Source: Candidatus Dojkabacteria bacterium
GTDB taxonomy: Bacteria; Patescibacteriota; Dojkabacteria; J137
Direction: 5' to 3'
NCBI GenBank assembly: GCA_030834985.1
Contig: JAUQWV010000006.1
Location: forward strand, 12,168 to 76,167
Length of the DNA stretch: 64,000 nucleotides
The position numbers were made by a program. Shown piece by piece: positions 30,001 through 33,000 of the stretch. The stretch's first letter is position 1. The number at the start of each line of letters is the position of its first letter.

Positions 30001-33000
30001 ATATTGGGCGCATCTAAAAGAAGAAAAGTTCAATCTACTAAAACAACCACTACTGCTACAACAAATTTACCGCCGCTGCCTGTACCACCCGTACCTATTC
30101 AGCCAGTTGCAGCTCAAGTAAACTTACCGCCTGCACCGCAACCTGTTGTACAACAACCAGTTACGCAACCGCAGCCAGTTACTCCATCAGCAGATTTCTC
30201 GTCGTTTATGCAGAATTATAATTTTGGAGTGCAGCCACAACCGGTTAAACCTAAACTACAGCAAGAAGCTGTGAAACCTAGAATACCTGAAACTCAAATA
30301 CCTTCTGAAGGGCCATCACAACCAGTGCTACTGTCAACACCTCAAAATTTAAGTCAGAATATTCAAATAGCATATAGTGGGGGAGCAACAACTTCTACTG
30401 AACCAGATCAAACTTACGTTGAGTCACCAGCAACAGATCAAGCTGTTGAACCTCAGGTGGCAGAAAATAATACAGAAGAAGAACTTAAGAAAATGTACCC
30501 AGAATTATACGGTGCTTCTACACAAGCACAAGAAGAAAACAGTAATACCGACACTACCACCAACCTATCTGCTACGCCTAATACTGATAATGGAGAATAT
30601 TTTGAACCTGTACCTAAAGATTAACTTTAACTTGCAATAGGAATGCAAACGGGCAGCTTTTTAAGCTGCCCGTTTAACCTAACTGCTCAGACCGAAGTAC
30701 TGAGTGAATCTAGAGAGTTACTCCCCAAAGCCACAAGATGTAAACTGTGGCTAAGAAGAAGACGAGGACGTTTACAAATCGACGCAAACGCCGATCGAAA
30801 GTCCGAGCTAACCATGTCGCGCCCCATGTTCCAGCAGGCGGTAACCCACCTGCAGTTTGAAGGAACAGACCTTTGTGAAGGCCATTTTCTTTACCTACGG
30901 CACTACCGGCACGATCTGCCCAGAAAACGAATACAATGATCATCACTAGCCAGGGTTTGTTGACCATCCCTTGTCCGATAGCCTGCACTGCTAAGTGCAT
31001 GGATACGAACGGATTTTCTGTGAACTCTGGCATTCCACTAAAAACGATACCCCACAACCACAGTATGTAGATTGTAGTGAAGGTATATACGCTTATAGTG
31101 AAGAGTGTTTTCCAGAATCCTCTCCATGTTTTTCTGTACCACTTCATCCATTGCACTGCACCTGCCGTTGCCGGCAATGCAGCCCGTTGCTTATTAATTC
31201 CCTCCGCGACGCTACGTAAAAACGCCTGCTTACGCGATTGGAGATTAACGAGCAGCATGATAACGATGATGATAACTAGAGCGGGATTAACGATAAAGCC
31301 TAGGCCAATTTGCGCCCAGATCGAGTTAAGCAACTCGAATAGGTTGAACATTTTGTTCTTCTCCCCATAGATTCAGTTGTTAAGTTACATATACAGTATA
31401 TACCTAAAAGGGCCAATTGTCTATATACTCAATATATACTTGGGTATGGTATAATTAATATGTAAAATGATATAAAATTACTTATATGGCAGAAGAACCA
31501 AAAAAAGAAGAAAAAAAAGAGCCACAATCAAGAACTGATAAGGTTTTTGAAGGCTTAGAAAAGTGGCTAGACAACTCTGCTGAAAAAGGCCTCGGCCTTG
31601 GTATTGCAGGAGATGCAGATATGAAGAAAAAAATTGACCGACTAGGTTTAGATAGAATAATTTCTGGGCCTACGGCAGTACTTGAAAGAGCGATATTAAC
31701 CCCTATAAAAGCTTATTCAGGACTTTATGCTGCCAGTCAGTACCTTGGTACAAGGATAAGAAATAGTGTAGCGATGAGACGAAGACTAGCTGCGGAAGAA
31801 TATTTAAAAGGGACAGGACCTTGGAGTGAAAAAGGTCTTATCTATGGGCATGCCGATCGAGTTGTAAAGGAAGCGCCAGAGTATCAGAAGGCATATAATA
31901 ATCTTGATAGTGTTGCTACTAAGAGAAATAATTTTTTTGATTCTAAAGAAAAATCAATACGTGTAGCACTAGATGAAGCTGCTGCCTCCGGTAATGCAGC
32001 TGCTGTAATAGCTGAAACCGCAAATCTACGTAATATCAGAAGGACACGCGCAAATATTGCTCATAGTGTGTATGTGGTCACAACTACACCACCACCTCAC
32101 TCTGACGAAGACAAAGAGAATTATGCACTACATATGGCAAACACCAATTTAAATACACAAAGGGCGGCTTACTTAGGAACTTCTAGCGCAATACCCAATA
32201 GAGTAATTAGGGGATTTAAGCAGCGTCGAATAGAAAGAGCTATCAAGCATGTTAATTGGAAAAAGGAACTTGCAACAAAAACTACAAAATCGACATTCGG
32301 AGTTTTTAGAATGAGCGATTATTTTGACAGACGTGATGACATACATTCTGAAATAGCACTGGAAAGAAAAGCACTCAAGACGGCTAGTGCCCTAAAAGAT
32401 CAGTATGCTATTCAGGCAAGAATTGATAAGCTAGAAAGAGAACTTAAAGATATGAGTGGAACGATGAGTATGACTGATCATATTATAACCTTCATGCACG
32501 GCAAGAAAGCAGGGTAGTAAACTTTACATATCTTTTCTGCTATATTAATAAAGTGTTATAACATTTTATTAATATGGTTATCCCAACTATTGATTCATTA
32601 TCTTTAGCCGATGCTGCATTCTCAAATAATAGCTGGTTTGTAACTGACCTATTACAATTTCTAGCTTCTAGAAATATAAATACCTTAAAAAAAATCAATT
32701 TTGATTATATCGGCATACTTAACTTAGATTTATCTGAGATAACTATTAGCAATAGTGTAGAAAAGATAAAAGCATCATTTATAGACTTTGAGAGATTATT
32801 GAACGTTCTTCAACAGATTTCAGGATTTTACAAAAGTAAATCCTATTCAAACCTTGATATTCAAATTGCCAACTTGACTATTTATAACGCTATAAAAGCT
32901 AATAAGCTAGATGAACTTAGTAGTGAACCAGGATTAGTACAAATAATACAAGAAGCAAAAAATTCAATTCCACAAGAGTATTTTCAAAACTCTTTTTATA

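What the first reader, a model, noticed from the sequence alone, without database searches (positions are those of the whole stretch)
30640..31485. GC-rich (~50% GC) islet encoding a membrane protein with an internal duplication, inserted in the surface-protein cluster
Against ~33% GC flanks, this ~750-bp segment is markedly GC-rich. It encodes a 213-aa 4-TM protein on the minus strand with a strong SD. The protein contains two copies of a 'T(I/V)YILWLWG' helix module, an intragenic duplication. The segment is flanked by a perfect bidirectional terminator at 30647-30675 and a divergent AT-rich promoter region with 'tatatact' repeats. The composition points to horizontal acquisition. No integrase is present.
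Basis: seen in the sequence. Interest (0 to 1): 0.55.

Follow-up and report, generated by a model that had tools for sequence, protein, structure and literature searches.

The report
GC-rich gene with self-clamping mRNA
The GC-rich patch is real, but it is not foreign DNA: it is a native, fast-evolving small membrane-protein gene of a Saccharibacteria (TM7) bacterium, and its GC richness is kept in every related strain, apparently because its mRNA must fold into a very compact, end-to-end clamped structure.

Summary
Observation confirmed. ORF 30710-31351(-) has 47.5% GC against 34.2% for the window, the highest of any 642-bp stretch. It encodes a 4-TM, 213-aa protein that is a tandem duplication of a 2-TM unit. 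It has its own promoter, a strong SD and a hairpin terminator.

Interpretation only partly right. The window is a Candidatus Saccharibacteria chromosome. In nine related lineages the same slot, just after the 715-aa surface-protein gene, holds a small 4-TM gene with GC3 of 0.44-0.63. All neighbours have GC3 of 0.13-0.27. An ortholog with saturated synonymous sites keeps GC3 at 0.52. No homolog exists outside this clade, so GC richness is a maintained trait, not a donor signature.

The slot lies in a ~4-5 kb strain-variable module that recombination swaps between near-identical genomes.

Third codon positions are near-uniform. All nine mRNAs fold more stably than synonymous-codon shuffles. In 9 of 10 GC-rich genes the 5' end of the predicted transcript pairs with the 3'UTR next to the terminator. 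In the window this pairing also buries the SD.

Best reading: selection for a compact, stable, translation-throttled mRNA, resembling hok-type toxin mRNAs. Protein function is unknown. All RNA evidence is computational.

The parts
30710..31351 (-). CDS of a 213-aa, 4-TM membrane protein. GC 47.5%, GC3 51%, third positions near-uniform (A .25, C .26, G .25, T .23).
   Evidence: Against the 98%-identical strain L001, 16 codons differ, 11 synonymous and 5 non-synonymous.
31031..31351 (-). Repeat 1 of the intragenic duplication (residues 1-107). It comprises TM1, a ~45-aa basic loop and TM2 ending in TIYILWLWG.
30713..31030 (-). Repeat 2 (residues 108-213), ending in TVYILWLWG. Its loop (codons 147-168) holds 10 of the 16 codons that differ from strain L001.
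31395..31423 (-). Sigma-70-type promoter TAGACA-17-TATACT. The predicted TSS is near 31388.
   Evidence: The TSS is inferred from spacing, not measured.
31386..31439 (.). Pair of TATATAC-type repeats/palindromes overlapping the -10 and -35 boxes (31386-31403 and 31422-31439). The exact 12-mer TATATACTGTAT is shared with the promoter of the second islet.
31361..31366 (-). Shine-Dalgarno GGGGAG. In the predicted full-length transcript it pairs with CUCUCU at the end of the CDS.
31369..31387 (-). 5'-UTR clamp segments UAACUUAAC (31379-31387) and UGAAUCU (31369-31375). They pair with the 3'UTR.
   Evidence: pairing probability 0.7-0.99
30675..30717 (-). 3' clamp partners. GUUAGGUUA (30675-30683) abuts the terminator. 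A cUUCGg-tetraloop hairpin spans 30686-30704. AGAUUCA (30705-30711) overlaps the stop codon. The anti-SD CUCUCU lies at 30712-30717.
30647..30675 (.). Bidirectional intrinsic-terminator hairpin (13-bp perfect stem, 3-nt loop). It is shared with the convergent 715-aa gene.
30500..35361 (.). Strain-variable module in which the islet sits (boundaries approximate). It runs from the extreme 3' end of the 715-aa gene through the islet, the 343-aa gene (31486-32517), the very AT-rich 597-aa gene (32574-34367) and the C-terminal ~330 codons of the 871-aa polytopic gene (34369-35361).
1042..1475 (+). Second islet of the same class. Promoter TTGACA-17-TATACT (1042-1070), SD AGAGGTG, 107-aa soluble ORF 1113-1436 (GC 50%, GC3 54%). 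The 5'UTR GUUGACA (1082-1088) is complementary to the 3'UTR UGUCAAC (1443-1449). The terminator with a cUUCGg loop spans 1456-1475.

Best explanation
The islet is a native, monocistronic expression unit of a Candidatus Saccharibacteria chromosome. It encodes a rapidly evolving small polytopic (4-TM) membrane protein, here built by an old tandem duplication of a 2-TM unit.

It occupies a 'slot' between a conserved surface (Ig/cadherin-like) protein gene and a strain-variable gene module. That module ends in the C-terminal domain of a large polytopic, weakly VirB6/ICE-TM-like protein. The slot and the module are reshuffled among strains by homologous recombination in the conserved flanks.

The GC richness is not a donor signature. 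It is a maintained property of whichever small gene sits in the slot. The most likely cause is selection on the RNA. The coding region is kept GC-balanced and heavily base-paired, and the 5' end of the transcript is clamped to the short 3'UTR next to the terminator. In the window's gene the SD is also buried by an anti-SD at the end of the CDS.

Such an mRNA would be long-lived, because both ends are protected, and translated only sparingly or after unfolding or processing. This is the logic known from hok-type type I toxin mRNAs. The strong SD, exceptional in this SD-poor genome, would compensate for the folded start region.

Shown here:
- the conserved compositional anomaly;
- orthology and synteny;
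- module swapping;
- the coding status of the ORF.

Shown only in silico: the excess folding and the 5'-3' complementarity.

Inferred: mRNA stability and translational throttling, and any role of the protein (toxin-like, immunity-like or host-interaction).
For: Taxon and context: SBP neighbour 76% identical to three Saccharibacteria MAGs.

Conserved anomaly:
- GC3 is 0.51 (window), 0.52 (L002), 0.63, 0.56, 0.63, 0.44, 0.59, 0.46 and 0.52 in nine lineages. Every other gene is at 0.13-0.27.
- The ortholog L002 is syntenic.
- Synonymous sites are saturated in all genes.
- No homologs exist outside the clade.

General GC pressure rather than codon optimisation: NNY, NNR and four-fold sites are all shifted to near-uniform usage. 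Amino-acid usage is shifted too (more Trp, Arg favoured over Lys).

The enrichment stops at the CDS borders.

Coding: 11 synonymous and 5 non-synonymous codon differences from strain L001. Four TM segments are found in all nine proteins.

RNA folding:
- Dinucleotide-shuffle z is -2.7 to -5.7.
- The whole predicted transcript folds at -276 kcal/mol, z = -8.1.
- Synonymous-codon-shuffle z is -1.7 to -5.1 in all nine (mean -3.4). 34 control genes give -0.64 +/- 1.3, Mann-Whitney p = 1.6e-5.
- With the S/W pattern of every codon held fixed the mean is -2.7, against -0.85 +/- 1.16 for controls, p = 5e-4.

End clamp:
- 5'UTR/3'UTR complements of 5-9 nt directly abut the terminator in 9 of 10 GC-rich genes.
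- The sequences differ between orthologs. Window: UAACUUAAC/GUUAGGUUA plus UGAAUCUA/UAGAUUCA. L002: GCUUGACA/UGUCAAGC. Also L7, L11, L5, L8 and w107.
- Per-gene shuffle p is 0.002-0.1, Fisher combined 2e-9.
- Ensemble probability of 5'-flank/3'-flank pairing is at least 0.8 in 9 of 10 islet genes, against 4 of 27 control genes. Mann-Whitney p = 3e-4.

SD: the two islet genes have the two strongest SDs of 53 window genes. All nine slot genes have a GGAGG-like SD.

Module swapping:
- L002 and L005 are 97% identical at nt level up to ~100 nt before the end of the surface-protein gene, then share no homology.
- L004 and L010 are 90% identical up to the start codon of the small ORF. Homology resumes ~1 kb inside the polytopic gene.
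- The C-terminal domain of the polytopic protein clusters by module type. Its N-terminal part follows the backbone.
- L010 combines a C-type small gene with D-class module genes.

Precedent for 5'-3' UTR closure with SD sequestration: hok mRNA tac/fbi (PMC9841398).
Against: All RNA evidence is thermodynamic prediction. TSS and 3' ends are inferred, not measured.

No positionally conserved structure was detected within the CDS between the two orthologs (alifold z = -1.0).

Predicted end-to-end pairing is not rare in controls: 6 of 27 reach 0.78 or more. 7-8-nt 5'/3' complements occur in ~20% of control gene flanks when wide AT-rich windows are used.

One slot gene (L010) has no clamp, and two (L3, L4) have only 5 bp.

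L4 and w107 have weak codon-shuffle z values (-1.7, -1.8).

The nine genes are not independent samples, because they fall into four sequence types.

The proteins (153-215 aa, 4 TM) are far larger than type I toxins, and no antisense RNA promoter was found.

Why this protein should need such an mRNA is unexplained.

A local mutational cause cannot be formally excluded.
Confidence: 0.5

Rival explanations
1. Foreign-origin islet. The gene was acquired from a GC-richer donor, for example an actinobacterial host or another CPR lineage, and has not yet ameliorated. Different lineages acquired different genes at the same hotspot.
For: Atypical composition at all three codon positions. Self-contained promoter/terminator unit in either orientation. 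At least four sequence types in the slot that do not follow the core phylogeny. Strong SD in an SD-poor genome.
Against: No homolog of the window's protein outside this clade in 1.84 billion representative proteins, phages, plasmids or viral contigs.

The vertically related orthologs (window, L002) both keep GC3 at ~0.51-0.52 despite saturated synonymous divergence.

Genes co-swapped with it in the same module are AT-rich, down to 25% GC.

GC enrichment ends exactly at the CDS borders.

There is no integrase and there are no insertion scars.

Foreign origin does not predict more mRNA folding than codon shuffles.

Confidence: 0.12
2. Local mutational or recombinational cause. The slot is a recombination or hypermutation hotspot, and GC-biased gene conversion or an unbiased error-prone process drives silent sites to ~50% GC and accelerates protein divergence.
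For: Extreme divergence: 29-31% aa identity between L004 and L010, whose SBP is 99% identical. Recombination breakpoints fall at the ORF border. 14 substitutions cluster in 64 nt between two 98%-identical strains. Third positions are near-uniform, as an unbiased mutator would give.
Against: The adjacent 230-340-aa and 550-620-aa genes are just as variable but have GC3 of 0.17-0.26.

The effect stops at the CDS ends, and the UTRs are AT-rich.

This cause does not predict excess folding under S/W-preserving synonymous shuffles, covarying 5'-3' complements or strong SDs.

Reported gBGC effects in bacteria are a few GC3 points, not 25-40 (my own knowledge, not tested here).

The second islet encodes a soluble protein in a different context.
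Confidence: 0.13
3. Translational selection. The gene is very highly expressed, and its codon usage (TTC, ATC, CGT and so on) reflects optimal codons rather than RNA structure.
For: Strong promoter and SD. TTC is used 13 times against 4 for TTT, ATC 11 against 3 for ATT, and CGT is the commonest Arg codon.
Against: G-ending and rare codons (GCG, CCG, CGG, CTG, CTC, GTG) rise as much as C-ending ones. Four-fold sites are near-uniform. Amino-acid composition is shifted as well. No ribosomal-protein or EF-Tu genes were available for comparison.
Confidence: 0.07
4. The functional product is a structured non-coding RNA. GC-rich islands in AT-rich genomes often are, and the ORF would then be incidental.
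For: GC-rich island in an AT-rich genome, with strongly negative folding z-scores.
Against: The ORF is kept at 213/215 codons in orthologs with 38% aa identity and a conserved duplicated 4-TM pattern. The GC3 > GC1 > GC2 phasing matches this frame. Strain differences are 11 synonymous against 5 non-synonymous. An SD sits at the correct spacing in all nine genes. There is no Rfam match. There is no conserved consensus structure.
Confidence: 0.05

Closest known systems
hok/Sok-type (type I toxin) mRNAs with tac/fbi 5'-3' UTR closure (PMC9841398)
   Same: The gene encodes a hydrophobic membrane protein. The full-length mRNA is predicted to be highly structured. The 5' end pairs with the 3'UTR. 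In the window's gene the SD is sequestered. The unit is monocistronic and lies in a variable genomic spot.
   Different: The protein is 153-215 aa with 4 TM, not under 60 aa with 1 TM. No antisense RNA gene or promoter was found. There is no mok-like leader ORF. Toxicity, 3' processing and mRNA stability are untested. There is no sequence similarity.
Polymorphic toxin/immunity or pore-forming-bacteriocin immunity cassettes (small polytopic immunity proteins in strain-variable modules)
   Same: A small 4-TM protein with its own promoter, in either orientation. It sits in a module that is hypervariable and swapped between near-identical strains. It co-varies loosely with neighbouring variable proteins and with the C-terminal domain of a large envelope protein.
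   Different: No recognisable toxin, immunity or defence domain in any module protein (Pfam, NCBIfam, PADLOC, PHROGs). L010 shows that the small gene can be recombined independently of the rest of the module. GC richness and mRNA clamping are not features of those systems.
'Moron'-like single-gene islets or horizontally acquired genomic islets
   Same: A promoter + gene + terminator unit whose composition differs from its flanks.
   Different: The compositional difference is conserved over long evolutionary times and across unrelated alleles. No donor was found and there is no mobility machinery.
Patescibacteria T4SS small membrane components (VirB2-like pilin arrays, PrgI/VirB3-like; PMC12102498)
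   Same: Small, hypervariable 2-TM or 4-TM proteins in Saccharimonadia. The repeat unit here is a ~105-aa 2-TM hairpin. The neighbouring polytopic protein weakly resembles ICE/VirB6-type TM proteins.
   Different: No match to TrbC/VirB2, T4SS_pilin, PrgI or any other Pfam or NCBIfam model. The loop between the TMs is ~45 aa. No VirB4 was seen among the window ORFs scanned. The VirB6-like hit is far below the family cut-off (19 bits against 70).

Membership tests
Recently acquired genomic islet (HGT from a foreign donor) | Composition atypical for the host genome | tested here: met
   GC 47.5% against 34.2%, and GC3 0.51 against 0.24 +/- 0.05
Recently acquired genomic islet (HGT from a foreign donor) | Absent from the syntenic locus of relatives (patchy presence) | tested here: inconclusive
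   This sequence type occurs only in the window lineage and L002. However, the slot is filled by another GC-rich small 4-TM gene in seven more lineages. It is empty in L012.
Recently acquired genomic islet (HGT from a foreign donor) | Homologs in a plausible donor lineage | tested here: not met
   Only two homolog clusters were found, both Saccharibacteria and syntenic. None in viral, phage or plasmid sets.
Recently acquired genomic islet (HGT from a foreign donor) | Compositional anomaly decays with time (amelioration) | tested here: not met
   Orthologs with saturated synonymous sites both have GC3 of 0.51-0.52. All nine alleles are at 0.44-0.63.
Recently acquired genomic islet (HGT from a foreign donor) | Mobility genes or insertion scars (integrase, direct repeats, tRNA target) | tested here: not met
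   None found
Type I toxin-antitoxin (hok-like) | Small (<~60 aa) hydrophobic toxin | tested here: not met
   213 aa with 4 TM. Slot genes are 153-215 aa.
Type I toxin-antitoxin (hok-like) | Stable, closed full-length mRNA with 5'-3' long-distance pairing and SD sequestration | tested here: inconclusive
   Predicted in silico. No experimental data.
Type I toxin-antitoxin (hok-like) | Cis- or trans-encoded antisense RNA antitoxin | tested here: not met
   No antisense promoter-like site in or next to the window's islet. One weak 9/12 match on the opposite strand inside the L005 ORF.
Type I toxin-antitoxin (hok-like) | Toxicity of the protein on overexpression | not testable with these tools
   -
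Structured non-coding RNA | Match to a described RNA family, or a conserved covarying fold | tested here: not met
   No Rfam match. Alifold z = -1.0 for the ortholog pair. Only the terminal clamp covaries.
Structured non-coding RNA | No selection on a reading frame | tested here: not met
   The ORF, the duplication and the TM pattern are conserved. Strain differences are 11 synonymous and 5 non-synonymous.
T4SS VirB2/VirB3/PrgI-type small membrane proteins | Profile match to TrbC/VirB2, T4SS_pilin, PrgI, VirB3 and related models | tested here: not met
   No Pfam or NCBIfam hit, even at E <= 1 for the other slot proteins
T4SS VirB2/VirB3/PrgI-type small membrane proteins | Location next to virB4 or other T4SS genes | tested here: inconclusive
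   Only a sub-threshold ICE-TM/VirB6-like hit on the 871-aa neighbour (E = 7e-4, 19 bits against a cut-off of 70). No VirB4-type domain among the ORFs scanned. Not all window ORFs were scanned.
Polymorphic toxin-immunity module | Hypervariable module exchanged between close strains | tested here: met
Polymorphic toxin-immunity module | Recognisable toxin domain and cognate immunity family | tested here: not met
   No hits in Pfam, NCBIfam, PADLOC or PHROGs

The most novel reading that the evidence does not exclude
Saccharibacteria carry a previously undescribed class of 'stable-mRNA cassettes'. These are monocistronic, SD-dependent, GC-balanced genes whose transcripts are closed by a covarying 5'UTR-3'UTR clamp next to the terminator. 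They would be stored as long-lived, translationally locked mRNAs.

The membrane-protein cassettes occupy a recombination-shuffled slot in a strain-specific envelope module. They would act as hok-like but much larger toxin, immunity or host-contact effectors, released by RNA processing or unfolding. This could happen, for example, on attachment to or loss of the host.
Probability: 0.2. Interest if true: 0.8.

Novelty: new variant of a known kind. Interest (0 to 1): 0.6.

Why it matters
First, a methodological point. A sharp GC or GC3 anomaly confined to one gene is routinely read as horizontal transfer. Here the anomaly persists through saturated synonymous divergence and across unrelated alleles, so it reports selection on the nucleic acid itself.

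Second, if the predicted end-clamped, SD-masking mRNA architecture is real, it gives a concrete and testable post-transcriptional control mechanism in Patescibacteria. These organisms have minimal regulatory repertoires, an epibiotic lifestyle and, in this genome, largely SD-independent translation.

Third, it flags a compact strain-variable module. The module comprises a small membrane protein, two orphan proteins and the C-terminal domain of a VirB6-like polytopic protein next to a surface adhesin-like protein. Its allelic types are shuffled among near-identical genomes. That pattern is expected for host-range, self/non-self or toxin/immunity determinants, and it could be targeted in the few cultivable Saccharibacteria.

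Tried and rejected
- Family assignment of the 213-aa protein failed. Pfam, NCBIfam, PADLOC and PHROGs gave nothing.
- A profile of the four half-repeats found nothing. Oddly, it did not even return the parent proteins, probably because of the candidate cap.
- AlphaFold2 with the 3-sequence alignment gave pLDDT 47, so no fold search was attempted.
- Rfam found nothing in the islet at gathering or E <= 10 level.
- A conserved consensus RNA structure between the window and L002 CDSs was not supported (z = -1.0).
- Viral contigs, phage records and plasmid records hold no relatives.
- The metagenome scan with the surface-protein alignment returned only the same organism (L006, 99.7% identical).
- hhalign between slot-protein types gave weak A-B and A-C links (E ~ 0.002, probability 13-16%). 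It gave none to the window's type. The 343-aa family is likewise not demonstrably related to the second gene of types A-C (probability 9%).
- The shared 12-mer TATATACTGTAT at both islet promoters is not significant by count alone: 26 of 100 shuffles give at least 2 hits at <= 1 mismatch. I treat it as promoter consensus.
- A literature search for hypervariable loci or GC anomalies in Saccharibacteria found nothing relevant.
- My first folding script hung and produced nothing.
- A DGR-type explanation was considered and dropped. No reverse transcriptase or template repeat is nearby, and the effect spans the whole CDS.
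Full report
**1. What is in the sequence**

ORF 30710-31351 on the minus strand encodes 213 aa. Its GC content is 47.5%, against 34.2% for the whole window. Among all 642-bp windows it is the maximum (mean 0.342, sd 0.033).

The excess is strongest at third codon positions. GC3 is 0.514, against 0.242 +/- 0.051 for the tabulated ORFs, and the next highest is 0.31. It is also present at positions 1 and 2. The enrichment ends at the CDS borders: the 100-bp bin holding the promoter is 27% GC.

The protein has four hydrophobic segments. 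It is a tandem duplication of a ~105-aa unit. Residues 14-102 align with 124-211 at a score of 96, against 30 +/- 5.5 for shuffles. The duplication is old: it is shared by the 38%-identical ortholog and leaves no DNA-level repeat.

The gene has its own control elements:
- a sigma-70-type promoter, TAGACA-17-TATACT;
- a GGGGAG Shine-Dalgarno sequence;
- a perfect 13-bp hairpin terminator shared with the convergent upstream gene.

**2. Organism and context**

The neighbouring solute-binding protein is 76% identical to proteins of three Candidatus Saccharibacteria MAGs. The window carries ordinary chromosomal genes. These include class II RNR, UvrC, an ATP-dependent ligase, AlaRS behind a T-box, MutL, MurA-type EPSP-fold, a PBP and tRNAs.

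The upstream gene (28477-30624) encodes a 715-aa Ig/cadherin-like surface protein. The divergent genes encode orphan proteins of 343 and 597 aa. These are followed by a convergent 871-aa polytopic protein with only sub-threshold resemblance to ICE/VirB6-type membrane proteins.

**3. The gene is not a lone insertion**

Only two homolog clusters exist in libraries of 5.8 and 1.84 billion proteins:
- a 98%-identical strain (L001);
- a 215-aa protein at 38% identity.

The second lies on a 41-kb contig (L002) with the same gene order. Its housekeeping neighbours are 71-78% identical to the window's. The islet protein and its two divergent neighbours are only 24-38% identical.

The L002 ortholog has GC3 of 0.519 amid neighbours at 0.18-0.27. 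Synonymous sites between the two genomes are saturated in every gene. For the islet gene the same-codon fraction at identical residues is 0.27, against 0.32 expected from codon usage. A donor signature should not survive this.

**4. The slot**

I anchored on the SBP and the 715-aa protein to collect the locus from more lineages. Seven further lineages have no tblastn match to the 213-aa protein. Each nevertheless has a single GC-rich islet at the same place. It holds a 153-177-aa ORF with four hydrophobic segments, its own promoter and hairpin terminator, and a GGAGG-like SD. It sits on the other strand relative to the window.

GC3 of the nine slot genes is 0.44-0.63. Every other gene in these loci is at 0.13-0.27. 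One lineage (L012) has an empty slot. Three distant lineages have a different, AT-rich single-TM gene.

The slot proteins fall into four sequence types. There are only weak profile links among three of them, and none to the window's type.

**5. A strain-variable module**

Slot types do not follow the backbone phylogeny.
- L002 (window type) and L005 (another type) have a 100% identical SBP and a 98% identical surface protein.
- Their DNA is 97% identical up to ~100 nt before the end of the surface-protein gene, and then shares no homology.
- L004 and L010 are 90% identical up to the start codon of the slot ORF. Homology resumes ~1 kb inside the polytopic gene.

The last 220 residues of the polytopic protein cluster by module type (53-77% within a type, ~25-35% between types). 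Its N-terminal part follows the backbone. L010 combines a type-C slot gene with window-class second and third genes and polytopic C-terminus. The slot is therefore an independently exchangeable sub-cassette.

This supports intra-clade horizontal exchange by recombination. It does not explain why only the slot gene is GC-rich, while the co-transferred genes are AT-rich (one is 25-29% GC).

**6. What kind of pressure**

Third-position usage in all ten GC-rich genes (nine slot genes plus the second window islet) is close to uniform. NNY, NNR and four-fold sites are all shifted. Trp and Arg are enriched. This is general GC pressure on the nucleic acid, not codon optimisation.

The ORF is nevertheless under purifying selection. 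Against L001, 16 codons differ, 11 of them synonymously. Ten of the 16 lie in codons 147-168, which looks like a small recombined patch.

**7. RNA folding**

- The CDSs fold far more stably than dinucleotide shuffles (z = -5.7, -5.6, -4.7, -2.7 and -3.4 for the first five).
- All nine fold more stably than versions with synonymous codons permuted within the gene (z = -1.7 to -5.1, mean -3.4).
- 34 other genes of the window give -0.64 +/- 1.30. Mann-Whitney p = 1.6e-5.
- With the strong/weak identity of every codon position held fixed, the islets still average -2.7, against -0.85 +/- 1.16 for controls. p = 5e-4.
- No common consensus fold of the two orthologous CDSs is detectable.

The signal is therefore for generic compaction rather than a specific internal fold.

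**8. The end clamp**

Folding the predicted full transcripts revealed a helix between the very 5' end and the short 3'UTR immediately upstream of the terminator. The 5'/3' segments are:
- window: UAACUUAAC/GUUAGGUUA and UGAAUCUA/UAGAUUCA;
- L002: GCUUGACA/UGUCAAGC;
- L7: ACAGCUA/UAGCUGU;
- L11: AGCUGUU/AACAGCU;
- L5: GCUCAUU/AAUGAGC;
- L8: UAAGCUCA/UGAGCUUA;
- L3 and L4: 5 bp each;
- L10: none;
- second window islet: GUUGACA/UGUCAAC.

Shuffling each 5'UTR gives p = 0.002-0.1 per gene, with a Fisher combined p of 2e-9.

The window's 745-nt transcript has an MFE of -276 kcal/mol (z = -8.1). Both the MFE and the centroid structure contain the clamp. They also contain a third helix in which the SD GGGGAG pairs with CUCUCU at the end of the CDS. 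SD-to-tail pairing is also predicted for L11, L8 and L4. In L3 the SD is held in a local hairpin.

With uniform, untuned flanks (40 nt upstream, 50 nt downstream), the probability of 5'-flank/3'-flank pairing is at least 0.8 in 9 of 10 islet genes, against 4 of 27 controls (6 of 27 reach 0.78). Mann-Whitney p = 3e-4.

Caveats:
- Ends of RNAs tend to pair in silico.
- 7-8-nt complements occur in ~20% of control flanks when wide AT-rich windows are used.
- TSSs are inferred, not measured.
- The ten genes are not fully independent.

**9. SD usage**

Among 53 genes of the window, the two strongest anti-SD duplexes belong to the two GC-rich genes (-9.0 and -7.8 kcal/mol). Most genes have none. A strong SD fits a start region that is otherwise folded.

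**10. Interpretation**

The most economical reading is that these are cassettes selected at the RNA level. They would produce a GC-balanced, compact mRNA with protected ends and, at least in some alleles, a masked SD. Such an mRNA would be long-lived and sparingly or conditionally translated. The closest described logic is the tac/fbi closure of hok mRNA (PMC9841398).

Membership in type I TA systems is not claimed, for three reasons:
- the proteins are 3-4 times larger, with four TM segments;
- no antisense RNA was found;
- nothing has been tested experimentally.

The protein's role is unknown. Its position in a recombination-shuffled envelope module suggests an immunity-like, toxin-like or host-interaction function. 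That step is inference only.

**11. Rivals**

- Foreign origin is disfavoured by sections 3, 4 and 5 and by the absence of any donor.
- A local mutational or gBGC cause is disfavoured by the AT-rich but equally variable neighbours, the CDS-limited extent and the structure-specific signals. It is not excluded.
- Translational selection does not explain the rise of G-ending and rare codons.
- A non-coding RNA is contradicted by the conserved, phased ORF under purifying selection.

**12. Novelty and score**

The protein families are orphans restricted to one Saccharibacteria clade. I did not find the following combination described in the literature searches made:
- a conserved GC3 anomaly;
- a strong SD in an SD-poor genome;
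- excess mRNA folding;
- a covarying 5'-3' clamp;
- residence in a swappable slot.

The Patescibacteria T4SS survey (PMC12102498) describes hypervariable VirB2-like pilin arrays but nothing like this.

I class it as a new variant of a known kind, namely structured, end-closed mRNAs for membrane proteins and variable cassettes. Interest is 0.6. The main uncertainty is that all RNA evidence is computational.

Noticed in passing
window 1042-1475 (+): A second GC-rich single-gene islet. It holds a 107-aa soluble orphan ORF at 1113-1436 (GC 50%, GC3 54%) and has the strongest SD in the window. Its promoter is TTGACA-17-TATACT and shares the 12-mer TATATACTGTAT with the 213-aa gene's promoter. The terminator has a cUUCGg loop, and there is a 7-bp 5'UTR/3'UTR complement. 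A strong divergent promoter (TTGTCA-17-TATAAT, 1089..1061, minus strand) overlaps it.
   Followed up: partly
window, all genes: Most of the 53 genes have no Shine-Dalgarno sequence (anti-SD duplex weaker than -4 kcal/mol). Only a handful have one, led by the two GC-rich genes. The organism appears to use largely SD-independent initiation.
   Followed up: partly
window 30500-35361; L002-L012: A strain-variable module (slot gene, a 230-340-aa orphan, a 550-620-aa orphan and the C-terminal ~330 aa of the ~850-aa polytopic protein) is swapped between near-identical genomes. The polytopic protein's C-terminal domain clusters by module type, while its N-terminal part follows the backbone phylogeny.
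   Followed up: yes
window 32574-34367 (+): The 597-aa orphan gene is unusually AT-rich (28.6% GC; homologs 25-28%). It is extremely divergent (24% aa identity between genomes whose ligase is 78% identical). It lies directly beside the GC-rich gene.
   Followed up: partly
window 40303-40507 (+): T-box leader (110 bits, above the gathering score of 93) upstream of a GNAT acetyltransferase gene and the alanyl-tRNA synthetase gene.
   Followed up: no
window 22578-24083 and 24123-25625 (-): Tandem paralogous orphan genes (501 and 500 aa). They share a 352-nt stretch at 86% nt identity near their 5' ends. Related genomes carry one or two copies.
   Followed up: no
window 27016-27202: 17 of the 28 differences between the window and the 99.7%-identical contig L006 cluster in the N-terminal Thr/Pro-rich region of the solute-binding protein gene. 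This is a local hot spot or a recombined patch.
   Followed up: no
window 30848-30911: 14 of the 31 differences from strain L001 fall within 64 nt inside the islet ORF (the loop of repeat 2). They mix synonymous and non-synonymous changes, as expected for a short imported recombination tract.
   Followed up: partly
L012 8416-8522; L013-L015: One related lineage has an empty slot: the surface-protein gene is followed directly by the 271-aa gene. More distant lineages carry an AT-rich single-TM 138-172-aa gene on the opposite strand instead.
   Followed up: partly
window 44449-45684 (-): The UvrB-like ORF is only 411 aa (ResIII + UvrB interaction domain). A 410-aa counterpart exists in L013. It may be a split or truncated UvrB.
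   Followed up: no
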